Source of the DNA: Chitinophagaceae bacterium | GTDB taxonomy: Bacteria > Bacteroidota > Bacteroidia > Chitinophagales > Chitinophagaceae | NCBI GenBank assembly: GCA_049318705.1 | Contig: JBMOFV010000009.1 | Location: forward strand, 31,655-95,654 | Direction of reading: 5' to 3' | DNA length: 64,000 nucleotides | Shown here: positions 13,139-57,820 of the stretch, one piece after another | Layout of the letters: each line of letters starts with the position of its first letter | How positions within the stretch are numbered: position 1 is the stretch's first letter | Position numbers and translations under genes: made by a program | Notes under the pieces: generated by a model | Told to the model about the DNA's origin: nothing | What the model saw: only the letters and a program-made list of their open reading frames with translations | The model's database searches: none

Positions 13139-13549
13139 TTAGCGCGTAGAAATATAATCTGTTTCACCCGGAAACACTTCCATCTCTACTTCACCAATGC
13201 CTTGTTGAATGAGTCCGAGTTTTTCGGCAGCAGCTTGCGAAAGGTCAATCAGGCGTTTGTTTTTTGCATTCATGCGGTCATTGATTTTAACGACAACACT
13301 TTTGCCATTCTTCGGATTCACGATACGTACTAAAGTTCCCAGTTTTAAAAAATTATTGGCAGCGGTTAATTTGGTGTTGGAAAAAATTTCACCGGTGCTT
13401 GTTTTACGGCCATTAAATTTGGGGTGATAATAACTGGCAATGCCTTGCCAACGTTGTTGACTCACTTTTTTAAATTGAGCCATTGTGAACTGACCTACTA
13501 AACTTAAGACAAGCACAAAAACGATTATTGAAATTCTACGTAAAACCAT
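13139..13549 (-). CDS. RlpA-like (DPBB domain) lipoprotein, copy 2 (tandem paralog)
   Basis: GIASYYHPKFNGRKTSTGEIFSNTKLTAANNFLKLGTLVRIVNPKNGKSVVVKINDRMN...RLIDLSQAAAEKLG. Start chosen at 13549 (MVLRRISIIVFVLVLSLVGQFTMAQ). The longest ORF runs to 13585. Confidence 0.8.
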   Translation of the reverse strand: MVLRRISIIVFVLVLSLVGQFTMAQFKKVSQQRWQGIASYYHPKFNGRKTSTGEIFSNTKLTAANNFLKLGTLVRIVNPKNGKSVVVKINDRMNAKNKRLIDLSQAAAEKLGLIQQGIGEVEMEVFPGETDYISTR

Positions 13550-14865: not shown

Positions 14866-16074
14866 TTGAAGATCTACCAACATATTCCATTTTTGAAAGC
14901 TGTGCTCCGCTATTCACTGACGGCTTTTGGCGGCCCGCAAGGGCATATGGGAATGATGTTAAAAACATTTGCGGAGAAACGTAAAGATGTGACTGAAGCT
15001 GAACTGATGGATTTTATGTCCTTTTGCCAAATGCTGCCCGGTCCTTCATCTACACAAACGATTACCCTCATTGGTTATAAAAGGGGTGGAGTCGTATTGG
15101 CGCTCATGACGCTTTTGATTTGGGTATTACCTGCGGCAGCGATGATGGGGGGGCTTGCGTTCTTGGTACATTATTTTGATATCAAAACCATCCAAACGAA
15201 TCTGTTTAAATTCATCCAACCTATGGCGGTCGGATTCTTAATGTATGCGGCCTACAAAGCTATGCGCATTAGCATCAAACATAAAGCCACCTGGATGATG
15301 ATGGGGGTCGCCTTACTGGCTACAATCATCATTCGTTCACCATGGGTTTTTCCTGCTTTGATACTGGCCGGGGGGATTGCTTCTAATTTTAGCGATAAAC
15401 GAATTCCGGATGTTTATGTGAAGCCCAAACCAGTTAAGTGGGTAAATATCTGGTGGTTTATTATTGTATTTGTTATTGCCGGGGTGCTTTCGGAGTTAGC
15501 CCGTATCAATCATTGGCCATTTGCACGGGGTTATAATTTGTTTGAAAATTTTTACCGATTCGGAAGCATCGTATTTGGTGGTGGGCATGCCCTCATACCA
15601 ATGATGTACGAGCAGTTTGTGGTACGGCCGGAAATTCTTCATTTAAAAGAATATCTGACCCCTTCTGAATTTTTGACGGGTGCGGGTATGGTGAATGCAT
15701 TGCCCGGGCCGGTTTTTTCGATTTGCACTTATGTAGGAGCTTTAAGTCTTAGTTCCTATGGTTGGTATGGCTTATTGGCGGGTTCATTGATTGCAACAGC
15801 CGGGGTTTTTTTGCCGAGTGTTTTATTGCTGTTTTTCTTTTTTCCCATTTATCATAATCTCAAACAATACACGGTCATTTATCGTGCCTTGGAAGGAATT
15901 CATGCTGTGATTGTTGGAATCATGTGGGCTTCAGGTGCACTTTTATTTCACTCCCTGCCTTTTGATTGGTCGAATCTCATCGTTATAGCCATCACATTTA
16001 GTTTGCTGATGTATTCCAAAATTCCGGCGCCACTGATTGTTTTAGGGTGGCTTTTATTGGGTTGGGCCTTGTAA
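14866..16074 (+). CDS. chrA: Chromate transporter (CHR family, two-domain form)
   Basis: FLKAVLRYSLTAFGGPQGHMGMM...FCQMLPGPSSTQ in the N-terminal half and FGGGHALIPMM...GAGMVNALPGPVFS in the second half; polytopic membrane protein. Apparent TTG start at 14866. Confidence 0.8.
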   Translation: MKIYQHIPFLKAVLRYSLTAFGGPQGHMGMMLKTFAEKRKDVTEAELMDFMSFCQMLPGPSSTQTITLIGYKRGGVVLALMTLLIWVLPAAAMMGGLAFLVHYFDIKTIQTNLFKFIQPMAVGFLMYAAYKAMRISIKHKATWMMMGVALLATIIIRSPWVFPALILAGGIASNFSDKRIPDVYVKPKPVKWVNIWWFIIVFVIAGVLSELARINHWPFARGYNLFENFYRFGSIVFGGGHALIPMMYEQFVVRPEILHLKEYLTPSEFLTGAGMVNALPGPVFSICTYVGALSLSSYGWYGLLAGSLIATAGVFLPSVLLLFFFFPIYHNLKQYTVIYRALEGIHAVIVGIMWASGALLFHSLPFDWSNLIVIAITFSLLMYSKIPAPLIVLGWLLLGWAL

Positions 16075-16111
16075 TAAAAATATTAAAGCTATTACTTGAC
16101 ATGCCTAATTG

Positions 16112-16347
16112 GGGGCTTCTGAATAACGCTCAAAATAAGTGGTGATGGGTATTCAAGCGAAATTTTAGAAACTCTCATGCACAATTTTTAAAAACCTATT
16201 TCCAAAAAGCATTCATTAGAGACTCAGAATCTTTCGCTACTCAGAAATACTGCATCTTCTGCTTTGCGGGCAAATCGCAGTATAACAATACAGCTTCATT
16301 ACCTGCGCCTTGAATCTACAGCATTACTGAGTTATTCAGGAGCCCCC
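16112..16347. mobile_element. Family-1 inverted-repeat (MITE/ERIC-like) element, minimal 236-bp copy
   Basis: Termini GGGGCTTCTGAATAAC ... GTTATTCAGGAGCCCCC. Flanked by a perfect 5-bp direct repeat AATTG (16107-16111 and 16348-16352). Homologous along its whole length to the copies at 19003 and 28182. Confidence 0.7.
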
Positions 16348-16469
16348 AATTGTTGGTTGTAATATTTGTTCCATTTTTCACCGAGGCAACTGTGATCAGC
16401 TTTAATCAAAAGGATCATTGAAAATTCTTGATGATTGGAGTCCCTTCATTTGATTCGAAAAATATGGGC

Positions 16470-16516
16470 AAAAAAAATCCGGCTTGAGTGTACAAGGGAT
16501 GAACAAACAAGCCGGA
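16470..16516 (-). terminator. Rho-independent terminator of the BNR-repeat gene
   Basis: The minus strand reads TCCGGCTTG-21 nt loop-CAAGCCGGA followed by T8, about 30 nt after the stop codon. Confidence 0.75.
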
Positions 16517-16545
16517 CGATCAATAAAAATCTGAGGACGCTTCAA

Positions 16546-18327
16546 TTATTTGGTAATCAACCTCGAGAAACGGACACCTTCCTTCGTAAGAATTTCCAGC
16601 ATATAATTTCCTTTGGCCAAATCAGGTAAGTTTAAATCAGATTTGGATTCACCTTTTTCGATTTTGATTTTTTGGTTCATAATTTGCTTGCCATCCAAAC
16701 TAATCAGTTGCACGTCTAATTCATCAGCCTGAACGCTTTTAAACGATAAGGTCAGGGTGCGATCAGCAGGGACAGGATAAACTGCAGTTAATTCTATACC
16801 GGCATTCAGTGGAGATATTTCGGTGATGGCAGTTGGCCATTCAGTGGTAACACTCACATACATTTTAGGACCTGTGCTACCACGGCCATCTGCCCAGATA
16901 TTGTAGATTTTAGAATCATTTCGAACCGAATTAAAATAATCACCAAACCATTTTCCCGTATTACTACTAGCTCCAAAATTGGTTGTTTGGGTGGTGATTT
17001 TTTTAGGTGCCCCGAAATTTGCACCATTGTTGGTGGATGTCTTAAAATAATAATCCGAAACTTTATTCACATCAATCACATAAGATCCAATCGTTACTTT
17101 TTTATTATGACAAGAGACAACGGGCATTAAAAATTTATTGCCGTTATGGGTGAGCAATAAAGGAGTGCTCCAGGTATTCCCTCCATCGGTGGAACGAGCG
17201 TAGTAAGAATTAAAATCAGGGCCGGCGCTTACCGGAAAATCACTCCAAACCAAATGCAGAATATCATCTCCATCGATGGACAAATTTGGTGTTCCGTTTT
17301 CACGGTCATGGATATAACCATTTCCCTGAGCCCCGAAAAGATTGGTGCCGTTATAAATCTGATGAGCCGCTGAATACGTGGTTCCGCCATTGGTAGAAAC
17401 TTTATGGTAAATGGTATTGGTATTCAAATCGGAATAGGTTACGTGCAGGTTTCCACTCTTGTCAACCACTAAGTTGCCAAATTGTGTTTCACCACTTACC
17501 ACCTGAAACCGGGCCGGCGCAAATCCATTGGAGGCGCTGGCTTTTTTCTTGACGGTAGTACCAACTAATGTGGGTGGTTCTGCAGAAGAAGGGAAATAGA
17601 TAAAAGAACAATACAAGCTATTGGCATTTGTGCCATTAGAATAGTCCATGGCAAACCATTGGCGATCATAAAAACCTTCGGAATTTGGATATGGTTCGAA
17701 GGTGAGTACATTTAGTGCGCAACGACCAATATAGCGGTCAGCGCCGGAAGCAACATTCCATGTGGCTCCATTGTCATTAGAACTCGCTAAATACATACAA
17801 GCATAAGCGGTATCAGGGGTGGCTTGAGAAAAAGCCAGATATATCCAGGAAAACCAGAGCTTGCCGTTTTTGTCGTACGCAAAAATCGGATCGCCGCCTC
17901 CGGCCACAAGCGTTCCAGCGCCAAAATCCTGCAACAAATAAGTGAGTGCATTAAAAGTACTGAGGTTCCAGTTTTGGCCACCATTGTTGCTATAATACAC
18001 CGGAAAGCTCAAGCCTGTTGAGGAATTGTCCATATAACTCAAAACCATCCGATTGTTGTTATTGGGATCCATGGCGATATGCGCTTCTCCTTCTTCTACT
18101 GCGGGGCTGCTACTGTTGCTGACTTTTAATTCCTGACTGGAGCGCGTTTTTTTATCAAAATAGCGGGCTTCGAAGGAGGCAATGGCATCTTCGACCGGAA
18201 CAGGAGTCCGAAATTTTTCTTTTTTCAGATGTTCGATCATACGTTCTTTCATGGAACTTCCCTGCTGAGCATGCGCAGCCATGAGGGTACAAATGCTAAT
18301 GAGGAAACAAAAGGTAGTTTTCAACAT
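16546..18327 (-). CDS. BNR/Asp-box repeat (sialidase-like beta-propeller) protein with T9SS C-terminal sorting domain
   Basis: Signal peptide MLKTTFCFLISICTLMAAHAQ. Asp-box-like motifs SNNGGQNW, SNDNGATW, STNGGTTY, STDGGNTWS, STNNGANF. C-terminal VYPVPADRTLTLSF...GNYMLEILTKEGVRFSRLITK. Confidence 0.75.
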   Translation of the reverse strand: MLKTTFCFLISICTLMAAHAQQGSSMKERMIEHLKKEKFRTPVPVEDAIASFEARYFDKKTRSSQELKVSNSSSPAVEEGEAHIAMDPNNNNRMVLSYMDNSSTGLSFPVYYSNNGGQNWNLSTFNALTYLLQDFGAGTLVAGGGDPIFAYDKNGKLWFSWIYLAFSQATPDTAYACMYLASSNDNGATWNVASGADRYIGRCALNVLTFEPYPNSEGFYDRQWFAMDYSNGTNANSLYCSFIYFPSSAEPPTLVGTTVKKKASASNGFAPARFQVVSGETQFGNLVVDKSGNLHVTYSDLNTNTIYHKVSTNGGTTYSAAHQIYNGTNLFGAQGNGYIHDRENGTPNLSIDGDDILHLVWSDFPVSAGPDFNSYYARSTDGGNTWSTPLLLTHNGNKFLMPVVSCHNKKVTIGSYVIDVNKVSDYYFKTSTNNGANFGAPKKITTQTTNFGASSNTGKWFGDYFNSVRNDSKIYNIWADGRGSTGPKMYVSVTTEWPTAITEISPLNAGIELTAVYPVPADRTLTLSFKSVQADELDVQLISLDGKQIMNQKIKIEKGESKSDLNLPDLAKGNYMLEILTKEGVRFSRLITK

Positions 18328-18377
18328 AATTTTATTTTTAGGAAAGACGAAAATAAGGACTCAAAAGTTAAGGCTCC

Positions 18378-18986
18378 TTAAAGGTTTTCAAATAGCGATA
18401 AAGAGGCGTTATTCAAAAGTTTGAACGATTTTCGGTGAAATGGTGATGGGCCGAATTCCATGATTCCTTTTCGATGGCTCAATGTTCCGTACCCTTTATT
18501 TTTATTCCATCCGTATTGCGGGAATTGATGATGAAGTTCCATCATGTATTGATCGCGGGTGGTTTTTGCCAAAACGCTTGCCGCCGCAATGGAGGCGTAC
18601 AGACTATCTCCTTTGATGATGCAGGTATGAGGTATGTTCGGATAGGGGATGAATCGGTTACCATCAATGATCAGGTATTTGGGCTTCAACGCCAATGCAT
18701 CAATCGCCAGGTGCATGGCTTTGATTGAGGCTTTCAGGATGTTGATCCGATCAATTTCTTCATGATCAACCATTGCAATACCATAAGCAAGAGCTTCTTT
18801 TAAAATCACGCCTCTTAATTCCTCCCTCACGGATTCTTTCAATGTTTTGGAATCGTTGAGTAAAGGGTGGTAAAATTTTTTTGGCAAAATAACAGCCGCC
18901 GCACAAACAGGCCCGGAAAGACAACCCCGTCCGGCCTCGTCGCAACCCGCTTCAAGGAGTTTGTTCTGGTAATATGGCTGTAACAT
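18378..18986 (-). CDS. rnhB: Ribonuclease HII
   Basis: 202 aa. EAGCDEAGRGCLSGPVCAAAVILP...DSK.L...IIDGN...KGDS.Y.SIAAASVLAKTTRD, the RNase HII pattern. Confidence 0.9.
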   Translation of the reverse strand: MLQPYYQNKLLEAGCDEAGRGCLSGPVCAAAVILPKKFYHPLLNDSKTLKESVREELRGVILKEALAYGIAMVDHEEIDRINILKASIKAMHLAIDALALKPKYLIIDGNRFIPYPNIPHTCIIKGDSLYASIAAASVLAKTTRDQYMMELHHQFPQYGWNKNKGYGTLSHRKGIMEFGPSPFHRKSFKLLNNASLSLFENL

Positions 18987-19021
18987 TTTGTAAAATTAGT
19001 TAGGGGCTCCTGAATAACGCT

Positions 19022-19053
19022 CAAAATTAGTTTTGATGGGTATTCAAGCCAAA
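19022..19053 (-). promoter_or_regulatory. Outward-facing consensus promoter inside the family-1 element, aimed at rnhB
   Basis: The minus strand reads TTTG (19053-19050), a 20-nt spacer, then TAATTTTG (19029-19022), followed by 35 nt and the rnhB ATG at 18986. This matches the Bacteroidota -33 TTTG / -7 TAnnTTTG architecture. Confidence 0.5.
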
Positions 19054-19174
19054 TTTTAGACGCCTTCGTGCACACTTTTTTAAGGCGAATTACTGAAAAG
19101 TGTTCACTTGAAATACATCATTATCGCTACTCAGAAATACTGCATCTTCTTCGTTGCTGGCAAATCGCAGTATA

Positions 19175-19357
19175 TTTCCGATGACACATTCATTATAGTC
19201 CAATTTCGTCTATGACTCATTGTACTATATTCATGTAGTATCCCCGTAAGTATGGCTGTAAGCCTTCGTACCTCAGTCACACCCATAACAACGGGGCCGG
19301 CTGGAATTTACCACTTCACAACTCAAATAGTCTTTGAACTATTTATCGTTGGAATTG
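19175..19357. mobile_element. Nested module B (183 bp) inside the family-1 element
   Basis: Flanked by GTATA on both sides (19170-19174 and 19358-19362). The 16112 copy has a single GTATA at 16280-16284 with nothing inserted (empty site). Confidence 0.65.
19243..19302. repeat. 60-bp sub-module C present only in this copy of module B
   Basis: Absent from the otherwise collinear module B at 28470-28592. Bounded by the short inverted repeat CCCCGT ... ACGGGG. No clear target duplication. Confidence 0.45.
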
Positions 19358-19727
19358 GTATAACAATACAGCTTCATTGCCCGCGCCTTGAATCTACAGC
19401 ATTTCTGAGTTATTCAGGAGCCCCCAGTTAGCTCTGTTTATAATCGGTGCAGTCAAAATTTGTATGCGCCAAAAAGTATCCACAAAGAACAATTGCAAAA
19501 TGAGGTAAAGGATCGGCCAATTGCACCATAGTTTTTGTGATAGTTATTTAGGATTGCTTGATTTATTGAAAAGCACAATGAATCTTCGAAAACAAAAATA
19601 TATGACCAGAACCCCGCTTGAATGTAAGTGATACAAGGGTTTTGGCAGATTCATTGCTCCGGAAAAGGAATTCAGGGGTAAAAACGAATATCGATATCCG
19701 CAGGCTTCCTTTAATTTTGCGCCCACG

Positions 19728-20765
19728 ATGCAATACAGGAAACAAATTGGGTGGTGGTTGATGACCGGAGTGATTATGATAGTGATTCAAGTGGTATTGG
19801 GAGGGATCACGCGTTTAACCGGATCGGGCTTGTCCATCACTGAATGGAAACCCATTTTGGGAAGTATTCCTCCTATGAATGAGGCCGATTGGAATCATGC
19901 CTTTGATTTGTATAAGTCTGCCACCGGACAGTACAAGTATCTGAATGCAGATTTTACCTTGTCAGATTTTAAATTCATTTATTTCTGGGAATGGTTGCAT
20001 CGAAACTGGGCGCGATTTATTGGCGTGGTTTTTTTGCTTCCCTTTGGCTGGTTTTGGTATAAAAAGGCATTTACACCAGAAATGGTACCCAAACTCATTG
20101 CCTTGTTTGTGCTGGGAATTGCACAAGGACTGATTGGCTGGATTATGGTAAAGAGTGGACTGACCGATGATAACCTTTACGTCAGTCATATCCGATTAGC
20201 TATTCATTTTGTGTCGGCGTTGGTATTATTGGCTTTTACATACTGGTTTGCCATGGATGTCATGATACCATCATCCGCTCGTCAGAGCAATCCGACTTAT
20301 CATCGCTGGGTCACATTTATTTTAGGGTTGTTGCTGTTACAGCTAGTTTACGGTGCATTTATGGCGGGTCTAAAGGCCGCAAGTGCTGCAAGTACCTGGC
20401 CGGATATCAATGGGAGTTATTTTCCGGAGGCACTTGTGCATCAAAATTGGGTGAATCATCCTATTGTGGTTCATTTTGTGCATCGTACCCTTGCTTATCT
20501 GTTGTTTGTGGCCATTCTTTTTATAAGCATTCGGTCGGCAAAAATGAATGGAAGTTTATTGTGGAAGAAATGGCGTTTTTTGCCCATGATCCTTGTATTC
20601 ATTCAGGTTTTACTTGGAATCGGGAGCGTGCTCATGGCTACCGAAACCCAAAGAAATGGATTTGGGGCCTTTGAATGGGCAGCGCAGATACATCAAATTG
20701 TGGCCATGTTTTTGTTGATGGCGCTTCTGTTTCATCTTTTTTTGGTGAGAGATCAAAAAAGCTAA
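19728..20765 (+). CDS. ctaA: Heme A synthase (COX15/CtaA family)
   Basis: 345 aa, polytopic. VVLGGITRLTGSGLSITEWKPILGSIPPMNEADWNHAF..YK...EF..IYFWEW.HR, with conserved His-containing helices (IHFV, VHFVHR). Confidence 0.85.
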   Translation: MQYRKQIGWWLMTGVIMIVIQVVLGGITRLTGSGLSITEWKPILGSIPPMNEADWNHAFDLYKSATGQYKYLNADFTLSDFKFIYFWEWLHRNWARFIGVVFLLPFGWFWYKKAFTPEMVPKLIALFVLGIAQGLIGWIMVKSGLTDDNLYVSHIRLAIHFVSALVLLAFTYWFAMDVMIPSSARQSNPTYHRWVTFILGLLLLQLVYGAFMAGLKAASAASTWPDINGSYFPEALVHQNWVNHPIVVHFVHRTLAYLLFVAILFISIRSAKMNGSLLWKKWRFLPMILVFIQVLLGIGSVLMATETQRNGFGAFEWAAQIHQIVAMFLLMALLFHLFLVRDQKS

Positions 20766-20851
20766 GCCCAACGATTTTTAAGAAAAAGACGTCTTTTTGA
20801 CAGTGATATTCCTAATTTACAGGAATAAGTATTAATTTTCACCTTCTAAAA

Positions 20852-23152
20852 ATGTGTATGATGGGCAGAGCTCTACAGTCTATTTTATTTATATCCTTCG
20901 CCTTGTTTCTGAATGGGATGATTCAAAAATCGTTTGGACAAACACCTCCAAATTGTCCACCATCTTATTCGGCTGGATATGTAATCACCGGAGATTCAGT
21001 TTCTTTCTGTTTGGATGGAGTTAATTTAACCTGTAATGCCTTTTCTTCATTGAATTCTACGGATTCTTATGCCGTAAATAATATTGCTTATAATCCTTAC
21101 CCATGGGTAGGTGCGAATCAGGTTTTGGTGAATATTGATGATGCCTGGAGCCAGGTGGTTACCTTGCCTTTTGCCTTTTGTTATTTTGGACAGAAATATA
21201 ATCAGGTGCAGATTGGCGCGAATGGGCAGTTATTTTTCGGGAATACGCAACCGGTAAATATGGGTGGAACAAATCCATGGGCGTCCAATGGAACTGTTGC
21301 GCCAACGTTTAACAACGGAATGAATAACTGTATTATGGCACCCTATCACGATATTGATCCGGGGGTATTTTTTGCAAATTCCAATGTAACCTGGGATATC
21401 TATGGTCAATATCCATGTCGATATTTGGTGGTTTCCTGGGACAGTATACCCATGTTCTCCTGTAATAATCTGATTGCCTCCCAACAGGTGGTGCTGTTTG
21501 AATCAACCTACCTGATTGATATCAATATTAAGGAAAAGCCACTTTGTTCTACTTGGAACGGTGGGGTTGCGCATGAAGGTATTCAAAATGCCAATGGAAC
21601 AGTTGCATTTATGGTGCCGGGCAGAAATGGAACAATTTGGACAGCCACCAACGATAGTTATCGCTTTTCGCCGGCAGGTGTACAAACCGTCAATTACCAG
21701 TACTATTGGGTGGATATACCTACAGGGGATACGATTGGAACTGGTCAAAATCTAAATTATTTCCCTACCCAAAGTACGCAGCTTACCGTACATTGTTATG
21801 CCGTAACTGATTGTGACACGATAGAAGCCTTTTTCGGAGATACAATAAATGTAGTGGTTACCGGTAATGTTATTGCTGATTTTGATTTTGATGTGATGTT
21901 AGGTTGTGTGGATGATACAGTCACTTTTACGAATTTGAGTACCAGTACGGCAGGTGGAACACCAACTTATCAATGGAGTTTTGGTGATGGTACTCTGTCC
22001 TCTGCTTTTGATACCACGCATATTTATTTTAACCAGGGTGTGTACAATGTCACTTTAATTGCGGGAGATAATGGCTGTTTGGACACAATTACAAAAAGTA
22101 TCGATCTGAATCATCCAATCCTGGCGGGTTTTGCGGCAACTGGCCCAACTAAGATTGATTCAGCCTGTTTAGGCGATGCTATGACGTTTACCGCAGGGCC
22201 TAGTTCGCAACCACCCACCGGTTTTATCACATACAATTGGGATTTCGGCGATGGCAATACGATAACGACCACAACGGATCCAACCTTGCATACCTATTCA
22301 GCGCCAGGCGTTTATACCGTAACGTTGACCGTGACAGATACGCTCGGATGTACGGATGATTTTACGCATTCTGTTTTTGTGGATAATCCGCCTTATGTGG
22401 CTTTTACCATTTCTGATGATGATATTTGTATGGGGCAGCCGGTTTATTTCAGAGATACGATGGCCGCCTACACGAAAAGTTTCACCTGGGATTTTGGAGA
22501 TTTATTTACACTTACGGATGTGCACAATCCAACACATACTTATGATTTAACCGGAATTACGAATGATATGAATGTTTATCAGGTGACCCTTACCGGTAAA
22601 TATGCGGTATGTCCGGATGCATCGGTTTCTCAAAATATTACAGTTCGCGCTTATCCAATCATCAATTTGGGTAAGGATACCATGTATTGCCCGGGTTTAT
22701 CGGGAGCCATTCAATTGTCTGATCCGAATTCTAAACACGTGAAGTCTTACGAATGGAGTACTGGTGAAACTTCATCTTCTATTTTGGTGAATCAAAGTGG
22801 ATACTTTTGGGTGAAGGCTAGTAATGGAGAATGTACCACCACAGATAGCATCACAGTAAAACGCGATTGTTATCTCAATGTACCGAATTCATTTTCACCG
22901 AATAGTGATGGCCTGAATGATTACTTCCTGCCAAGGGAATTGCTGAGCAGTGGAGTTGTTACCTTCCGAATGAGTATCTATAACCGTTGGGGAGAACAAA
23001 TATTTACAACCACTGCCATTGATGGTCGTGGATGGGATGGAAAGTATAACGGTCAGGATCAGGGACAAGGTGTATATGTTTATGTCATTGATGTATCGTT
23101 TATCAATAATGTCAAGAAGAATTTCAAAGGAAATGTCACTTTAATGCGATAA
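20852..23152 (+). CDS. Surface protein: Cys-rich N-terminal domain (possibly NIDO-like) + PKD domains + T9SS type B (gliding-motility-associated) C-terminal sorting domain
   Basis: PKD cores WSFGDGT, WDFGDGNT, WDFGD. The C-terminus CYLNVPNSFSPNSDGLNDYFLPRE...IYNRWGEQIFTT...GWDGKYNGQ.QGQGVYVYVI...KGNVTLMR is the type B sorting domain signature. Confidence 0.85.
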   Translation: MCMMGRALQSILFISFALFLNGMIQKSFGQTPPNCPPSYSAGYVITGDSVSFCLDGVNLTCNAFSSLNSTDSYAVNNIAYNPYPWVGANQVLVNIDDAWSQVVTLPFAFCYFGQKYNQVQIGANGQLFFGNTQPVNMGGTNPWASNGTVAPTFNNGMNNCIMAPYHDIDPGVFFANSNVTWDIYGQYPCRYLVVSWDSIPMFSCNNLIASQQVVLFESTYLIDINIKEKPLCSTWNGGVAHEGIQNANGTVAFMVPGRNGTIWTATNDSYRFSPAGVQTVNYQYYWVDIPTGDTIGTGQNLNYFPTQSTQLTVHCYAVTDCDTIEAFFGDTINVVVTGNVIADFDFDVMLGCVDDTVTFTNLSTSTAGGTPTYQWSFGDGTLSSAFDTTHIYFNQGVYNVTLIAGDNGCLDTITKSIDLNHPILAGFAATGPTKIDSACLGDAMTFTAGPSSQPPTGFITYNWDFGDGNTITTTTDPTLHTYSAPGVYTVTLTVTDTLGCTDDFTHSVFVDNPPYVAFTISDDDICMGQPVYFRDTMAAYTKSFTWDFGDLFTLTDVHNPTHTYDLTGITNDMNVYQVTLTGKYAVCPDASVSQNITVRAYPIINLGKDTMYCPGLSGAIQLSDPNSKHVKSYEWSTGETSSSILVNQSGYFWVKASNGECTTTDSITVKRDCYLNVPNSFSPNSDGLNDYFLPRELLSSGVVTFRMSIYNRWGEQIFTTTAIDGRGWDGKYNGQDQGQGVYVYVIDVSFINNVKKNFKGNVTLMR

Positions 23153-23221
23153 ATCCTTTCGGTCCTTAACATTTGAAGGTAAACATGCGTCTTAATGATT
23201 CATGACCTTCAATTGTTATTT

Positions 23222-26200
23222 ATGAAAAATCTGTTTTCTACCTTCTTTTGTTTGGCCCAATTACTTGGCTTCATTCAAATGTATGCCGGGCCTTCATCGC
23301 AATTGCATTTTGTTGAAAATGCTCGGCAATGGAATAATCAAGTTCTCTTTAAGTCTGATTTGCCCGGGGGGCATGTTTTTCTGACCAAAGAGGGATTTCG
23401 TTATTCTTTTTACGATCAAAAGGATTTAGAAAAGGTGCATGAAGAGCGACATCATGATTTTTATAAGTCATATCAGGTGCCGGTGCATTGCTACGCTTAC
23501 GATGTTCAATTTAAAAATGCCCGGATTAACTGTGAAGTAAAGCCCATCAATCAACGAAATTTTTACCATAATTATTTTCTGGGCAATGATCCAAAAAAAT
23601 GGGCTGGTCATGTAGGCGTATTCGAAGGGGTGCAGTATCAACAACTTTATGAAGGCATTGATTTACACGTTTATAGTGTGGGTACTTCTCTCAAATATGA
23701 TCTCATAGTCCATCCAAAAACCAAACCGGGGCAAATTATTATGCAGTACAAGGGCATACAGCCGGTGTTAAAAGAAAACGGGAATTTGATGTTGGAATTA
23801 GGGTTTAATCAAATTGAAGAATCAAGTCCTTATACCTATCAGATGATTGATGGACAAAAAGTGACCGTTCCGAGTCGATATGTTTTAAAGGGAGATGAAT
23901 TGAGTTTTGAATTTCCTGAAGGGTATAATCGGAATTATGATTTGATTATTGACCCTACGTTGATTTTTGCAACTTACAGCACTTCAACCGCAACTACATA
24001 TGGTTTCAGCGCAACTTATGATCTGTCTGGTTCTCTTTATGCAGGCGGAGAATGTTTTAATACCGGATGGCCTTCTTCAGTGGGTGCATTTCAACTAATT
24101 TTTGCGGGGGGCGTTGATGCAGGAATCAATAAATACACCCCTGCCGGGAATGCATTGATTTATTCAACTTACTATGGTGGTTCAGGATACGATTTGCCAA
24201 ATAATATGGTGGTGAATGCGGCCAACGAATTGGCTATGACCGGATCCACGGGTTCTTCCAATCTGCCGCTCACTGCCGGTGCTTATGACAATACATTGGG
24301 CGGGCAGTCCGATGCTTATGTGGTGCGTTTTAATGCCACGGGAACTGCTTTGCTTGGGGCTACTTTTGTGGGAGGTTCAAATTCGGATGCCCAAAATACC
24401 TTTAACCTGAGTCCGAACTACGGAGATGCAAACCGGGGTGAAATCTATTATGATGGACCTTCGGATGTGGTTGTAGCTGTAAGTACTCAATCAAACGACT
24501 TTCCTATTACAGCCGGTGCATTTCAGACAACTTTCGGTGGAGGAACGCAAGATGGATGTTTTTTTAAGTTAGACGGAACTTGTTCGAATTTGATTTTTAG
24601 TACTTATCTCGGTGGAAGCAACGATGATGCGTGTTTTGCCGTGGTAAAAAATAGTTTAGGAAATTGGGTCCTCACGGGCGGTACAGAAAGTAATAATTTT
24701 CCAACTACCGGAGCGGGTTATCAAATCGTTTATCAGGGAGGAACTGCAGATGGTTTTGTAAGTATTCTTGATCCGGGTGCCAGTACCATGATTTCCTCAA
24801 CTTATCTGGGAACGAGCGATTACGACCATGGATTTAAAATTCAAGTCGACCCCAATGATACGGTGTATGTATGCGGACAAACACAAGGTGCTGGATTTCC
24901 GGTGTCAGCCGGGGTTTACTCCAATCCCGGAGGTGGTATTTTTATTGCCAAATTAACCCCATCACTCAATAATATTGCTTTGTCTACGCGAATCGGTCAG
25001 ACCTCTGGCCTGGTACCAACTGCATTTTTAAAAGATAATTGCGGCAATGTTTATTTTACCGGCTTTCAGGCACAAGCCGGTTTGCCATTAACAGCCAATG
25101 CCTACCAATCCACCCCAGGCGGTTTTTGGTTGTCGGTATTGAGTGGCGATTTTAGTAACCTGGTTTATGCCACCTATATGGGTGCTTCAGGCGATCATGT
25201 TGATGGAGGTACTAGCCGATTTGATCCACAGGGAATTGTGTATCATTCCGTTTGTACGATTTCTGGAAATCAATATCAGTCGCCGGGCTGTTTATCTCCA
25301 AATAATTTGTCAGCCAGTTGGGATGTGTCCAGTTTTAAATTTGATTTTGAATTAGCCGGAGTGACCGCTGCATTGGTAATTAGTCCGAATGATTCAGGGT
25401 GTGCTCCATTCACAGTTAATTTTACCAATTTCTCCATAGCAGGCTTGAGTTATTTATGGGATTTTGGAGATGGAGGTACTTCTACTGCCGTAAGTCCGAC
25501 CTATACTTATTTGAGTCCGGGCACTTACACTGTTCGCCTGATCGCATACAATCCGAGTGGTTGTGTGGCTGCTGATACTGCTTATACCACCATTCGGGTC
25601 ATTGAATCGGTTGACGCTACTTTTATAGCTACACCACAGTTAGGTTGCATCGATGATACGGTTCAGTTCAATCTTACGGCCAATCCTATCGCTTCGAATG
25701 TTTCGTTCTTATGGAATTTTGGCGATGGCACCATTGGCAATACGATAGACCCATCTCATATTTATACAACACAAAATAATTATACAGTGACTTGTATCGC
25801 CAGTAATGGTTTTTGTAAGGATACCTTTCAAACATCCTTTGATTTGAAACATCCAATCGATGCACAATTTGCCAGCCTGTTGGTGGATCCGCCCAATCAG
25901 AATATCGCAAAGGACTCTTTTTGTCTGGATCAGCTGATTCGTTTTGATGCCGTTTTGTCCATTCCACAGGGTTCACTCAATTATCAATGGGATATGGGTG
26001 ACGGAAATACTTTAAATATGACCACCAACTTTCATGATTATACCTATGCGAAAGCGGGCTTATATACGGTTCGATTGATGGTGACAGATACACTCGGTTG
26101 TGTGGATTCAATCAAGAAAAATATTTTTGTCGATGAAAAAGGATTCGCCGATTTTTCTATTTCAGATGACAGCATTTGTTTAGGAGAACCCATCTTTTTA

Positions 26201-26890
26201 AGAGATAGCCTCGTGGGGTTAACGGATCGTTTTTATTGGCAATTTGGAGATGGTAATTTGGTGTATGATATTCATAATCCTGTTCATACTTATGATCAGG
26301 CTTCTGCGCCGGCATATACCGTTACATTAACAGCAGAGTATAAAGTTTGTCCCGATCAAAGTGTCACTAAGTCTGTTGTGGTTCAGGCGTTCCCGAAAAT
26401 TAACTTAGGGAAGGATACGGCCATTTGCCCCGGACTTACCGGCATGCTTCAGCTATCAGACCCGATGGCGTCCAATGTCAATCAATATTTGTGGAGTACG
26501 GGTGAAACAAGTTCTTCTATTCTCATTAACCAACCAGGTTATTATTGGGTAAGGGTGAATAATGGAGAATGTGCAATGACGGATAGTATCTGGATTAAAA
26601 GAGATTGTTATCTCAATATACCGAATTCCTTTTCTCCGAATGGGGATGGATTGAATGACTATTTTTTACCACGTGAATTGTTGAGTAGTGGATTAACTTC
26701 CTTTAAAATGAGTATTTACAACCGATGGGGTGAGCAGATATTTACCACCACTGCAATCGACGGACGAGGATGGGATGGCAAATACAATAATGTACCACAA
26801 CCACAAGGGGTGTTTGTTTATGTAATTGACGCCTCATTCATCAACAATGTGAAAAAGACATTCAAAGGAAATGTCACATTGATGAGATAA
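23222..26890 (+). CDS. Surface protein: N-terminal beta-propeller (SBBP-like repeats) + PKD domains + T9SS type B C-terminal sorting domain; paralogous to the preceding gene over the last ~430 aa
   Basis: Start taken at MKNLFSTFFCLAQLLGF (the ORF begins at 23195). Repeated ...STYLGGS..D.. segments; PKD cores WDFGDGGTS, WNFGDGT, WDMGDGNT, WQFGDGN. C-terminus CYLNIPNSFSPNGDGLNDYFLPRE...IYNRWGEQIFTT...KGNVTLMR. Confidence 0.85.
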   Translation: MKNLFSTFFCLAQLLGFIQMYAGPSSQLHFVENARQWNNQVLFKSDLPGGHVFLTKEGFRYSFYDQKDLEKVHEERHHDFYKSYQVPVHCYAYDVQFKNARINCEVKPINQRNFYHNYFLGNDPKKWAGHVGVFEGVQYQQLYEGIDLHVYSVGTSLKYDLIVHPKTKPGQIIMQYKGIQPVLKENGNLMLELGFNQIEESSPYTYQMIDGQKVTVPSRYVLKGDELSFEFPEGYNRNYDLIIDPTLIFATYSTSTATTYGFSATYDLSGSLYAGGECFNTGWPSSVGAFQLIFAGGVDAGINKYTPAGNALIYSTYYGGSGYDLPNNMVVNAANELAMTGSTGSSNLPLTAGAYDNTLGGQSDAYVVRFNATGTALLGATFVGGSNSDAQNTFNLSPNYGDANRGEIYYDGPSDVVVAVSTQSNDFPITAGAFQTTFGGGTQDGCFFKLDGTCSNLIFSTYLGGSNDDACFAVVKNSLGNWVLTGGTESNNFPTTGAGYQIVYQGGTADGFVSILDPGASTMISSTYLGTSDYDHGFKIQVDPNDTVYVCGQTQGAGFPVSAGVYSNPGGGIFIAKLTPSLNNIALSTRIGQTSGLVPTAFLKDNCGNVYFTGFQAQAGLPLTANAYQSTPGGFWLSVLSGDFSNLVYATYMGASGDHVDGGTSRFDPQGIVYHSVCTISGNQYQSPGCLSPNNLSASWDVSSFKFDFELAGVTAALVISPNDSGCAPFTVNFTNFSIAGLSYLWDFGDGGTSTAVSPTYTYLSPGTYTVRLIAYNPSGCVAADTAYTTIRVIESVDATFIATPQLGCIDDTVQFNLTANPIASNVSFLWNFGDGTIGNTIDPSHIYTTQNNYTVTCIASNGFCKDTFQTSFDLKHPIDAQFASLLVDPPNQNIAKDSFCLDQLIRFDAVLSIPQGSLNYQWDMGDGNTLNMTTNFHDYTYAKAGLYTVRLMVTDTLGCVDSIKKNIFVDEKGFADFSISDDSICLGEPIFLRDSLVGLTDRFYWQFGDGNLVYDIHNPVHTYDQASAPAYTVTLTAEYKVCPDQSVTKSVVVQAFPKINLGKDTAICPGLTGMLQLSDPMASNVNQYLWSTGETSSSILINQPGYYWVRVNNGECAMTDSIWIKRDCYLNIPNSFSPNGDGLNDYFLPRELLSSGLTSFKMSIYNRWGEQIFTTTAIDGRGWDGKYNNVPQPQGVFVYVIDASFINNVKKTFKGNVTLMR

Positions 26891-27448
26891 AACAACTTTT
26901 AGCGATGGGCTATGACCACCAAGATGGCATAAATCAGCGAAAAGATGAGCAGATACCAGGAGTAATCGTGTTTTGCTTTAACCGTTTTCATATCATTTAT
27001 ATTTCTTAAGTTTTTCAATGGTGTCATGGAATGGCCTAAGTCGGTTGTTGGAAGGTTCGTCAGTGTTTGCAATGCATCTTAATTTACAAACGCAGCAAGC
27101 GGGAGATTATTTAAATCGCTGCGATAAAATGAAAAAGGAATGGGATGAATGGTCTTAATTTTAACCCAAATTTTGTCTTGTCCATTGGACGTGGGGTTAC
27201 AAATAGGGGAGAAAGTGAAATTTGGGTCACTCGAAGACGTCATTAATCAGAGGCACATATTCTCACGAACTTATAAACTCCTTTTCAGGTCAGGTCATCT
27301 GAAACAAACCACTCTTTCAGTTTATCCTCATTTTGCAAATAGAATATTCATTCCATCCCCTTCCATCCAAATATGGTCTCTTATACTTTTTGAGAAAGGG
27401 ACTTAAAATAGTTTTTAGAAGCAGGCAGATTTTAATACCTTCGCCAAC

Positions 27449-28180
27449 GTGAATTTCAAGATTATAGTTGCACTCTGCCTGGTTTTCTGTTTTGGAATAT
27501 CTGGTATGGGTTTCGCTCAGGTGGCTACTCCTCCTGTTTTGCCATCCATGAGTATTGTTACCGAAAATGCCCAAAATATTTTGAGCTGGACTTCACAATT
27601 TGATGGCGTGAAATCTATTGCTGTGCAGAGGTCTGCGGATAGTGTTCGAAATTTTGTGACCATTGGCGTGCTGAGTAGTCCCAAAAAAGGGATTCAAAGG
27701 TACGTGGATGAATTACCCTTGGCCGGAAAAAATCACTACCGGTTATCGGTAAATTTTGCAGGTGATTTGGAGTGGTTCAGCAATACCTATAAAGTCTATC
27801 TGGATTCAGCCATCATCGCGAATTCCATGAAAGGAGCCATTAAATCAGGAACCACTAAATCAGTGCCTATAAAGGACACCGTGAATCATACCAATACCGC
27901 TTCCACGCCTAAATCAACCGAGTTTTATTACACGCCTTCCACGCATGTTTATACGAATCCTTATACGGGGCATATTAATATTACATTGGAGGATGCCCTG
28001 AGTAAAAAATATTCGTTGCGATTTTTTGATCCCAACAAAAATGAAGTACTAAAAGTGTCCCGTATTTCGCGGCCCAATTTGGTTTTGGACAAAAATAATT
28101 TCAATGCCAAAGGCACCTTTCAATTTCAGTTGTTTGAAGGAAATGAATTGAAGGAGACTGGTTATATCACCATCTATTAA
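27449..28180 (+). CDS. Hypothetical secreted protein
   Basis: 243-aa ORF with a GTG start and signal peptide MNFKIIVALCLVFCFGISGMGFAQ. Beta-rich composition; no family recognised. Confidence 0.55.
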   Translation: MNFKIIVALCLVFCFGISGMGFAQVATPPVLPSMSIVTENAQNILSWTSQFDGVKSIAVQRSADSVRNFVTIGVLSSPKKGIQRYVDELPLAGKNHYRLSVNFAGDLEWFSNTYKVYLDSAIIANSMKGAIKSGTTKSVPIKDTVNHTNTASTPKSTEFYYTPSTHVYTNPYTGHINITLEDALSKKYSLRFFDPNKNEVLKVSRISRPNLVLDKNNFNAKGTFQFQLFEGNELKETGYITIY

Positions 28181-28299
28181 AGGGGTTCCTGAATAACGCT
28201 CAAAATGAGTGGCAATGGGCATTCAAGCGAAATTTTAGAAACTCTTATGCACAATTTTTAAAAAATATTTCCAAAAAGCGGTCACTTGAGATTCTGAAT

Positions 28300-28415
28300 A
28301 CCGAAAGGAATTATGTAAAAGACCAATTAAAATTGGTCTAACATACTTCAAATCGGTATTTACTCCGCCGCGGCGGATAAGAATTGGTTTATATACCAAT
28401 TCACAGTCGCATAAT
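28300..28415. repeat. Nested module A (~116 bp), hairpin-dense insert unique to this copy
   Basis: Absent from the same position in the 16112 and 19003 copies. Contains ATACCGA/TCGGTAT, GACCAATT/AATTGGTC, the 14-nt perfect palindrome TCCGCCGCGGCGGA (28364-28377) and AATTGGT/ACCAATT. Confidence 0.55.
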
Positions 28416-28469
28416 TTTTCGCTACCCAGAAATACTGCATCTTCTTCGTTGCGGGCAAATCGCAGTATA

Positions 28470-28592
28470 TTTCCGATGACACATTCATTATAGTCCAATT
28501 TCGTCTATGACTCATTGTACTATATTCATGTAGTATCGGAATTTACCACTTCACAACTCAAATAGTCTTTGAACTATTTATCGTTGGAATTG
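28470..28592. mobile_element. Nested module B (123-bp form lacking sub-module C)
   Basis: Inserted at the same site as in the 19003 copy, flanked by GTATA (28465-28469 and 28593-28597). Confidence 0.65.
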
Positions 28593-28670
28593 GTATAACA
28601 ATACAGCTTCATTACCCGCGCCTTGAATCTACAGCATTTCTGAGTTATTCAGGAACCCCTATATGGCCAA

Positions 28671-29168
28671 TTAAATTACTTCGCAGTAATTCAAATCAAA
28701 GTACCCAAGAATGTCATTCGCATAGTCTTTGGTGAAATAGATTTTAGGGCTGTATTTGCCAAATACCGGATATTTTATTTTTTCCTGACCTTGTATATCA
28801 TAGTTGTAACCCACCAAAAAAAGTTTAGGTTCTTCCTTCATCCGGATTTTGTAAATACGGCGGTGACTGGCTGTTTTAAACCATTCGGAAATGGGTTCGG
28901 CATCATACTCAAAGACCTTCTGCAACTTAACCCGATATATTTCCTGGCCCTGATCATAATGGTCGGTGAAGATCAAATTAAAATTATGAACATAGCAGGC
29001 CAGACAATAATCGCCTTTAATGACAGCCGGGGTCTCCATATCGCCGATAATTTCCACATCCAGGCCCATATGGTCCCAAAAGGCAGCGAGCCTTGCATTG
29101 CGTTTTTGAATGGTTTGTTTGAGGTCCTTGACCATAGGACGCTTCATCGTAGTTCTTTCTATCGCCAT
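28671..29168 (-). CDS. Hypothetical cytoplasmic protein (165 aa), downstream of feoB
   Basis: Protein-like composition, unlike the antisense ORF 28791-29195. No signal peptide and no recognisable motif. Confidence 0.55.
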   Translation of the reverse strand: MAIERTTMKRPMVKDLKQTIQKRNARLAAFWDHMGLDVEIIGDMETPAVIKGDYCLACYVHNFNLIFTDHYDQGQEIYRVKLQKVFEYDAEPISEWFKTASHRRIYKIRMKEEPKLFLVGYNYDIQGQEKIKYPVFGKYSPKIYFTKDYANDILGYFDLNYCEVI

Positions 29169-57783: not shown

Positions 57784-57820
57784 TGAATCAATTTTCTGAA
57801 GGATTTATTATCTTTCAGGC

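What the first reader, a model, noticed from the sequence alone, without database searches (positions are those of the whole stretch)
18998..19430. Nested (Russian-doll) insertion: a 183-bp module with its own 5-bp duplication sits inside a family-1 element, and an empty site is visible in the same window
The copy at 19003-19425 is flanked by a perfect AGTTA duplication. Relative to the minimal copy it contains an extra 183 bp (19175-19357) bracketed by GTATA on both sides. The minimal copy has a single GTATA at 16280-16284 (…CGCAGTATAACAATACAGC…), which is an exact empty site.

The same module at the same position, with the same GTATA flanks, is present in the 28182 copy (28470-28592). There it lacks a 60-bp piece (19243-19302), which is bounded by CCCCGT…ACGGGG.

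Inference: module B inserted once into a family-1 element, and the composite then kept transposing. At least two mobile sequence families with a 5-bp duplication have therefore been active in this lineage.
Basis: seen in the sequence. Interest (0 to 1): 0.6.

Follow-up and report, generated by a model that had tools for sequence, protein, structure and literature searches.

The report
Small transposon nested inside another
A 185-bp non-coding jumping element (3-bp TAA/TTA target duplication) really sits inside a larger non-coding element here, but its near-identical copies lie in old, diverged hosts, so it seems to have spread among them by recombination; an ordinary kind of bacterial repeat biology.

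Summary

**What module B is.** It is a separate mobile element. It has its own inverted ends (TACCGAT…ATTGGTA). It occurs outside family-1 in this genome and in 7 of 18 sampled genomes of the same genus. It also sits in a second host family ("1b") that has five empty copies.

**Its target duplication is 3 bp, not 5.** The duplication is TAA/TTA, as in Tourist-like elements.

**Family-1 duplicates 6 bp (TAWWTA).** Empty orthologous sites in sister species confirm this for the 19003 copy and three other B-carrying loci.

**"Inserted once" is supported.** All copies of B inside family-1, including one in a sister species, share the same mutated junction (TAT…TAA, end TTCC).

**"The composite then kept transposing" is not shown.**
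- Seven young B copies are 99–100% identical.
- Their hosts' left arms are only about 76% identical and fall in at least five supported clades (AU p = 0.0002).
- Flank markers are mosaic.
- Recombination between family-1 copies is therefore needed.

**Limits.** No transposase partner was found. This scan has noted nested small elements before, on other DNA.

The parts
18997..19002 (+). Left copy of the family-1 target duplication (TAGTTA)
   Evidence: The sister species G003 has a single tAGTTA at the orthologous empty site.
19003..19424 (+). Family-1 element (host 'A') carrying module B. It has inverted ends GGGGCTCCTGAATAAC... and no open reading frame.
   Evidence: The genome holds 52 pairs of these inverted ends, about 32 of them complete copies of 231-236 bp.
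19425..19430 (+). Right copy of the family-1 target duplication (CAGTTA; first base changed, or a 5-bp stagger)
   Evidence: Across the family the flanks are 6-bp TAWWTA, with 15 of 51 perfect pairs. A 6-bp count is shown at the C14 locus.
19173..19175 (+). Left copy of module B's 3-bp target duplication, now TAT
   Evidence: The empty site reads gcagta-TAA-caatac. The same junction is present in all in-family-1 copies.
19176..19360 (+). Module B, long form, 185 bp. A Tourist-like small non-coding transposon: left end TTCCGATGACAC (TACCGATGACAC in copies elsewhere), right end ...GGAATTGGTA.
19361..19363 (+). Right copy of module B's 3-bp target duplication (TAA)
19243..19302 (+). 60-nt optional hairpin piece 'D' inside B. 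It is absent from the short form.
   Evidence: The same 63|124 boundary is seen in short forms of G012, G013 and G004, and one base off in C73. A homologous piece sits in two C-type elements.
16112..16346 (+). Minimal family-1 copy. It is flanked by TAATTG/CAATTG.
16283..16285 (+). Unoccupied TAA target of module B, in the predicted apical loop of the element's conserved hairpin
28182..28659 (+). Third family-1 copy, carrying B (short form) and module C. It has no matching target duplication. The orthologous site is empty in G003 and G013.
28471..28595 (+). Module B, short form, 125 bp. It is flanked by TAT (28468-28470) and TAA (28596-28598).
28299..28411 (+). Module C, 113 bp. A second member of the same TACCGA-ended superfamily, flanked by GAA (28296-28298) and TAA (28412-28414).
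   Evidence: Stand-alone copies carry TAA/TAA or TTA/TTA flanks.

Best explanation
Module B is a small non-coding transposon of its own. It is 185 bp in the long form and 125 bp without an optional 60-nt hairpin piece. It belongs to a superfamily that also includes module C and a 115-bp relative, 'B2'. Members have inverted ends TACCGAT...ATTGGTA and duplicate a 3-bp TAA or TTA target, which is the Tourist / IS5-PIF-Harbinger style.

One copy inserted once into the TAA at the predicted tip of the conserved 86-nt hairpin that forms the right half of the family-1 element. That A::B junction then picked up two substitutions: the left duplication became TAT, and the terminus TACC became TTCC.

The junction-bearing segment was later passed among long-diverged family-1 lineages by homologous recombination or gene conversion between element copies. 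The amount of host flank carried along varied. Family-1 copies, with or without B, kept inserting at new 6-bp TAWWTA sites after this species split from its sister species.

Shown: the anatomy, the empty sites, B's independence, the single junction, and the polyphyly of the hosts. Inferred: the recombinational route, the hairpin-tip target, and the type of transposase.
For: 1. **Empty sites in three host families.**
   - Family-1: gcagta-TAA-caatac.
   - Family 1b: gat-TTA-ctactcgc in five copies, against gat[TTA]TACCG...GGTA[TAA]ctactcgc in C1:130182-130616.
   - Family X: gac-TAA-aaaattc, against c[TAA]TACCG...GGTA[TTA]aaaattc.
2. **The 3-bp flanks are a direct duplication.** By hand count, 14 of about 22 independent B- or C-type insertions have identical 3-bp flanks. 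These are TAA/TAA or TTA/TTA pairs, that is direct and not inverted.
3. **B occurs without family-1.** It stands alone at C73 and C60. It is found in 7 of 18 sampled congeneric genomes, and the copies examined there (in G003, G012, G013, G004 and G008) have no family-1 arms next to them.
4. **B is younger than its hosts.** Among five complete young B+ copies, B is 99.3-100% identical. AM is 93.1%, AR 96.4% and AL 76.3% identical. Seven left halves are 72-87% identical.
5. **The hosts are polyphyletic.** The left-arm tree needs 6 changes of B state and starred branches force at least 5. The AU test of one clade gives p = 0.0002.
6. **One junction.** All young copies carry the identical junction ...gtaTAT|TTCCGATG, and so does the G003 copy. 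No young B lies outside family-1.
7. **Flank markers are mosaic**.
   - C14 keeps its own clade's markers to within 5 nt of B.
   - C4 carries another clade's markers across the whole AM segment.
   - C9:50657 differs from its clade at one marker.
   - C8 matches its nearest relative at all nine markers.
8. **Recent host insertions.** The four B+ loci tested are empty in G003, and also in G013 where its contig is continuous.
9. **The pattern repeats.** B2 is 97-100% identical, while its family X hosts are 82-96% identical.
10. **Target position.** The TAA lies in the apical loop of the consensus fold of the conserved right half.
Against: - No transposase with matching ends was found. DDE_Tnp_1 and DDE_Tnp_4 are absent from this assembly. 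The DDE_Tnp_1 genes in related genomes show no convincing TACCGAT ends.
- The genome is a 96-contig assembly, probably from short reads.
- Recombination was not observed directly. No locus was found with B in one strain and without it in another. The one metagenome contig for the 19003 locus ends just before the B site.
- The hairpin is invariant, so it has no covariation support.
- The 3-bp duplication in family-1 itself is imperfect (TAT/TAA).
Confidence: 0.68

Rival explanations
1. Clonal composite. B inserted once, and the A::B composite was then copied as one unit by the family-1 transposase. No recombination was involved.
For: A single shared junction. B+ copies lie at at least seven loci. 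The four loci tested are empty in sister species. Module C fits this pattern better: two C+ hosts fall in one left-arm clade, and C diverges about as much as its hosts do.
Against: No two B+ copies share a left-arm lineage. Each one's nearest relative lacks B. The AU test gives p = 0.0002. B is far more uniform than its flanks.
Confidence: 0.1
2. Repeated site-specific insertion. B, or its transposase, targets the tip of the family-1 hairpin and has entered different family-1 copies independently.
For: B occupies the same nucleotide in at least seven diverged hosts. The target lies in a predicted apical loop. The same behaviour is seen for B2 in family X. Six of seven B+ copies have ACAATAC to the right of the site, against 11 of 32 copies without B.
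Against: Independent insertions would each make a symmetric duplication. All copies instead share TAT on the left and TAA on the right. Other insertion sites of the superfamily share only TAA/TTA, with no longer motif and no evident hairpin. No young B occurs anywhere else.
Confidence: 0.12
3. Deletion only. The long form is ancestral, the short forms arose by deletion between GTATA microhomologies, and B was never mobile.
For: GTATA does bracket the segment. Older diverged in-family-1 copies all carry B.
Against: B stands alone at C73 and C60. It sits in family 1b, which has five empty copies. It occurs in other species without family-1 arms. It has its own inverted ends and a 3-bp duplication. 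B is younger than its hosts.
Confidence: 0.02
4. Assembly artefact. B was threaded into some family-1 copies, or homogenised, by the assembler.
For: The assembly has 96 contigs. Contigs C26, C44, C51 and C61 end inside B.
Against: Both flanks of four B+ loci are colinear with single contigs of G003. Copy-specific host variants lie within 5-25 nt of the B junction, so junction-spanning reads must exist. Contig breaks at B fit truly near-identical copies.
Confidence: 0.05

Closest known systems
Tourist-like MITEs of the PIF/Harbinger superfamily (e.g. mPing) and bacterial IS5-family elements with 3-bp duplications. This comparison is from general knowledge and was not tested against a reference set.
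   Same: Small non-coding elements with terminal inverted repeats and a 3-bp TAA/TTA target duplication. They occur in many copies and often nest in other small elements.
   Different: The ends (TACCGAT...) do not match any named element that I could check. No PIF- or IS5-type transposase was found in this genome. The host is a Chitinophagales-like Bacteroidota genome assembled from a metagenome.
Nested MITEs in plants and fungi. Nested elements are mentioned, for example, in PMC3227409 and PMC5172404, found.
   Same: One small element sits inside another, and empty sites are visible in paralogous copies.
   Different: Here the guest is much more uniform than its hosts and always occupies one site. 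That points to spread by recombination between host copies and not to repeated transposition. A 2024 review of prokaryotic MITEs (PMC10969869) does not contain the word 'nested'.
ERIC and BOX-type modular intergenic repeats of bacteria. This comparison is from general knowledge.
   Same: A repeat scaffold occurs with or without extra segments at fixed internal positions.
   Different: Here the extra segment is shown to be a separate mobile element, with its own ends, its own duplication, and copies elsewhere.
   Same: A Bacteroidota repeat scaffold with optional inserts in predicted loops. The inserts appear to be exchanged among resident copies.
   Different: Rfam found no match to any family, at E up to 1, across all three window copies. 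Family-1 has target duplications and empty orthologous sites, so it is a transposon.
BrickBuilt MITE of Porphyromonas gingivalis (PMC4596501, listed)
   Same: A Bacteroidota MITE with a variable internal module.
   Different: There the internal module is a minisatellite, not a second transposon.

Membership tests
MITE (miniature inverted-repeat transposable element), for module B | Terminal inverted repeats | tested here: met
   The left end is TACCGATGACAC. The reverse complement of the right end is TACCAATTCCAAC. Both are conserved in copies from at least five species.
MITE, for module B | Target-site duplication, checked against empty sites | tested here: met
   A 3-bp TAA/TTA duplication. 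Exact empty sites exist in three host families.
MITE, for module B | Small, non-coding and in multiple dispersed copies | tested here: met
   125 or 185 bp with no open reading frame. About 12 in-host copies and 2 stand-alone copies in this genome, and 1-15 matches in each of seven other genomes.
MITE, for module B | An autonomous partner with the same ends | tested here: not met
   No long element pairs with these ends in this genome. No DDE_Tnp_1 or DDE_Tnp_4 gene is present. Transposase loci in related genomes lack convincing matching ends. The assembly is incomplete for repeats, so this does not show absence.
Tourist-like / IS5-PIF-Harbinger type | 3-bp TWA target duplication | tested here: met
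   Eleven TAA/TAA and three TTA/TTA pairs. Only two TAA/TTA mixed pairs were seen, so the repeat is direct and not part of the inverted ends.
Tourist-like / IS5-PIF-Harbinger type | Mobilised by a DDE transposase of that superfamily | tested here: inconclusive
   None is present in this genome. DDE_Tnp_1 occurs in 16 of 34 congeners. Presence does not track B copy number: G004 and G013 have many B copies and no hit.
IS200/IS605-derived palindrome-associated elements | No target duplication, hairpin ends instead of inverted repeats, and insertion 3' of a fixed tetra- or pentanucleotide | tested here: not met
   A 3-bp duplication is present. The left flanks share no 4-mer beyond TAA/TTA.
Flavo-1 RNA motif (RF01705), or any other Rfam family | A match to the covariance model | tested here: not met
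   No match at E up to 1 in window 15900-29000, which holds all three copies.
MITE, for the family-1 host | Inverted ends, a target duplication and an empty orthologous site | tested here: met
   52 end pairs. Flanks are 6-bp TAWWTA, with 15 perfect pairs against 3.1 expected from shuffled pairing. Four loci are empty in G003.

The most novel reading that the evidence does not exclude
The conserved 86-nt hairpin of family-1, and the matching site in family X, may act as a landing pad. Small guest elements would then be copied from one resident host copy to another by break-induced gene conversion at the hairpin tip. This would be a homing-like route of spread that needs no transposase for the guest, and it would explain why guests are far more uniform than their hosts in two independent host-guest pairs.
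Probability: 0.25. Interest if true: 0.6.

Novelty: new member of a known kind. Interest (0 to 1): 0.36.

Why it matters
The locus is a clean, internally controlled record of one small transposon inside another. Empty sites exist both in paralogous copies and in sister species. This fixes the real duplication lengths at 3 bp for B and 6 bp for family-1, and it defines an undescribed TACCGAT-ended superfamily in a Chitinophagales-like lineage.

The less ordinary point is that the guest is much more uniform than its hosts, and that this holds in two separate host-guest pairs. If long reads confirm it, small repeats in this genome exchange internal segments by recombination. That matters for anyone who dates repeat families from copy divergence or uses such repeats as strain markers.

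Tried and rejected
- **Zero or 1-bp duplication with ends ATACC...GGTAT.** I first read B this way. I dropped it when the three empty sites and the TAA/TAA versus TTA/TTA concordance fitted a 3-bp duplication exactly.
- **TA duplication (IS630/mariner style).** It is off by one base at the 1b and X empty sites.
- **IS200/IS605-like insertion.** Rejected, because the left flanks share no motif.
- **Rfam.** No match.
- **Autonomous partner.**
  - Pairing of TACCGAT-type ends at 0.1-3.5 kb gave nothing convincing.
  - DDE_Tnp_1 and DDE_Tnp_4 are absent from this genome.
  - Thirteen transposase loci in related genomes lack these ends.
  - The multi-copy gene next to family X is not a transposase by Pfam.
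- **The 60-nt piece D.** Folds differ between copies and only a CCCCG...CGGGG stem recurs, so I make no claim of function.
- **Same-locus polymorphism for B.** The single metagenome contig, 97.8% identical, carries the family-1 insertion but ends in AM before the B site.

Full report
**1. Observation**

- The element at 19003-19424/5 has inverted ends GGGGCTCCTGAATAAC... and AGTTA on both sides.
- It carries 183 extra bases (19175-19357) between two GTATA pentamers.
- The minimal copy has a single GTATA at 16280-16284.
- The copy at 28182 has the same module without 19243-19302. The boundaries of that 60-nt difference are unique and have no microhomology.

**2. Setting**

The window is contig C9:31655-95654 of a 3.27-Mb, 96-contig, 40% G+C genome. 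Related records are metagenome-assembled Bacteroidota or Chitinophagaceae genomes.

**3. Census**

- The genome holds 52 pairs of family-1-type inverted ends. About 32 are complete copies of 231-236 bp.
- Flanks are 6-bp TAWWTA. Fifteen of 51 pairs are perfect, against 3.1 expected when right flanks are shuffled among copies.
- The 6-bp count is shown directly at the C14 locus. G003 has TAAACA once, and this genome has TAAATA on both sides of the element.
- At the 19003 locus G003 has tAGTTA once and no element.

**4. What module B is**

*B outside family-1 in this genome.*
- A short form lies directly after an enolase-like gene's stop codon at C73:6461-6578.
- A long form lies at C60:~6648-6819.

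*B in a different host.* B also sits in a different 247-bp element family, "1b", at C1:130182-130616. Five other 1b copies are empty at exactly that point: gat-TTA-ctactcgc, against gat[TTA]TACCG...GGTA[TAA]ctactcgc.

*A close relative.* B2 is 115 bp. Its left part resembles module C and its right part resembles B. It sits at one site of a roughly 420-bp repeat, "X". Empty X copies read gac-TAA-aaaattc.

*Module C.* The 113-bp insert at 28299-28411 has the same left end, TACCGA. It has many stand-alone copies flanked by TAA/TAA or TTA/TTA.

*Other species.* B, in both long and short forms, occurs in 7 of 18 sampled genomes of the genus. The copies examined there have no family-1 arms next to them. 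Most are flanked by TAA on both sides.

*Duplication count.* By hand count over:
- 14 of about 22 independent insertions have identical 3-bp flanks;
- 11 of these are TAA/TAA and 3 are TTA/TTA;
- only two are mixed TAA/TTA.

The trinucleotide is therefore a direct duplication and not part of the inverted ends.

B is thus a Tourist-like small transposon with a 3-bp TWA duplication. It has no open reading frame and no Rfam match.

**5. Why GTATA is not the duplication**

- The empty site reads gcaGTA-TAA-caatac.
- The filled site reads gcaGTA-TAT-[TTCCGATG...TTGGTA]-TAA-caatac.
- The left pentamer is the host's GTA plus TA of the duplication.
- The right pentamer is B's own terminal GTA plus TA of the duplication.
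- B is therefore 19176-19360 (185 bp), with TAT at 19173-19175 and TAA at 19361-19363.
- Compared with copies elsewhere, the left junction has two substitutions: TAA became TAT, and TACC became TTCC.

**6. History inside family-1**

*One junction.* The mutated, asymmetric junction is present in every young in-family-1 copy. It is also present in the one A::B copy of G003, whose interior is garbled by homopolymer errors. Older copies carry it in degraded form. Because the duplicated trinucleotide is host sequence, this is a shared derived character of one insertion event.

*The carriers are not a clade.*
- Family-1 has a variable left arm (mean 75% identity) and a conserved right half (93%).
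- On the left-arm tree the six B+ copies need six changes of state. Starred branches force at least five.
- Holding the five young copies together costs 82.8 log-likelihood units (AU p = 0.0002).
- Each B+ copy's nearest relative lacks B.

*B is more uniform than its hosts.* Among the young copies:

| Segment | Identity |
|---|---|
| B | 99.3-100% |
| AR (right of B) | 96.4% |
| AM (left of B) | 93.1% |
| AL (left arm) | 76.3% |

Seven left halves, including two at contig ends, are 72-87% identical.

*Host markers near B are mosaic*.
- C14 keeps its own clade's variants up to 5 nt from B.
- C4 has another clade's variants across the whole AM segment.
- C9:50657 differs from its clade at one marker.
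- C8 equals its nearest relative at all nine markers.

*No young B lies outside family-1.* I therefore read B's spread as host-dependent. A segment containing the junction was moved between diverged family-1 copies by homologous recombination or gene conversion, with tracts of variable length.

*Timing.* The four B+ loci tested are empty in G003, and also in G013 where its contig is continuous. The host insertions therefore post-date that split. I cannot tell whether B entered before or after each host copy landed.

*The pattern repeats.* B2 is 97-100% identical in family X copies that are 82-96% identical.

**7. Target position**

The consensus fold of 32 minimal copies pairs AM with AR into an imperfect hairpin of about 86 nt. 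The TAA lies in its apical loop. Module C's site lies in the unpaired junction before the hairpin. The region is almost invariant, so there is no covariation evidence. This is a prediction only.

**8. The 60-nt piece**

- Long and short forms with the same boundary (63|124 of B) occur in this genome and in G012, G013 and G004. The boundary is within one base of this in the stand-alone copy at C73.
- The young long and short in-family-1 forms are otherwise identical.
- A homologous 60-nt piece, with a different but still complementary stem (GCCGAT...ATCGGC), sits at the homologous position of two C-type elements.
- It behaves as a discrete optional unit. It has no stand-alone copies, so its own mobility is not shown.

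**9. Rivals**

- *Clonal composite transposition.* Rejected for B. It remains possible for module C.
- *Repeated site-specific insertion.* Disfavoured by the shared asymmetric junction.
- *Assembly artefact.* Unlikely for presence and position, because flanks are colinear with G003 and copy-specific variants abut B. Repeat collapse could still inflate B's identity.

**10. Known relatives and novelty**

Nested small transposons are well known in plants and fungi. This scan has noted them several times in other bacteria. A 2024 review of prokaryotic MITEs does not contain the word "nested". I rate this as a new member of a known kind. The guest-versus-host uniformity contrast is the only unusual feature.

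**11. Limits**

- No transposase partner was found.
- The only metagenome contig for the locus stops before the B site.

Noticed in passing
G000:C2:118345-119298 (L080:96-1049): Family-1 inverted ends with a perfect TAAATA duplication enclose 954 bp. Inside are a PIN_2-domain protein (150 aa, E = 1.4e-28) and an overlapping 67-aa upstream ORF, which looks like a toxin-antitoxin pair. Remnants of B and AR are also inside. This would be a transposase-less mobile cassette carrying passenger genes.
   Followed up: partly
window 16112-16346 and all family-1 copies: The left arm is only about 75% identical between copies, while the right half is about 93% identical and folds into an 86-nt imperfect hairpin. 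The outermost roughly 10 nt of the two ends co-vary between copies (for example CTAC/GTAG, TTCC/GGAA, TCTAC/GTAGA).
   Followed up: partly
window 28182-28659: This copy has no matching target duplication (ATTAAA against TATATG). The orthologous site is nevertheless empty and colinear in G003 and G013.
   Followed up: partly
G000:C7:46242-46775; also C7:36855-37388, C7:23998-24575, C17:1-473, C16:~57592-57855 and C64:1-244: Repeat family X is about 420 bp and has 25 or more copies. Six copies carry the 115-bp element B2 at one TAA. X's right end (GTTGAATCGGTA|TAA) resembles B's end. Its left end has no matching inverted repeat.
   Followed up: partly
L061 (G003:C7:115106-115543): The sister species has one family-1 copy with an insert at the same site and the same TAT|TTCC junction. 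The interior is long runs of C, G and T, which looks like a long-read consensus failure.
   Followed up: no
G000:C1:87447-87629 and C35:29430-29655: Two C-type elements carry a 60-nt piece homologous to 19243-19302 at the homologous position. Its stem sequence differs but remains complementary.
   Followed up: partly
G000:C28:~35270-35340, C23:~13365-13435 and C7:~37400-37470: Another element of about 75 bp, bounded by TACCGATGA...ATCGGTA, lies directly against the left end of several family X copies. The TACCGAT-ended superfamily therefore has further small members.
   Followed up: no
L079 (metagenome contig Ga0315904_10113546): A contig 97.8% identical to window 16352-19157 carries the same family-1 insertion at the 19003 site. 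It ends inside the conserved AM segment.
   Followed up: yes
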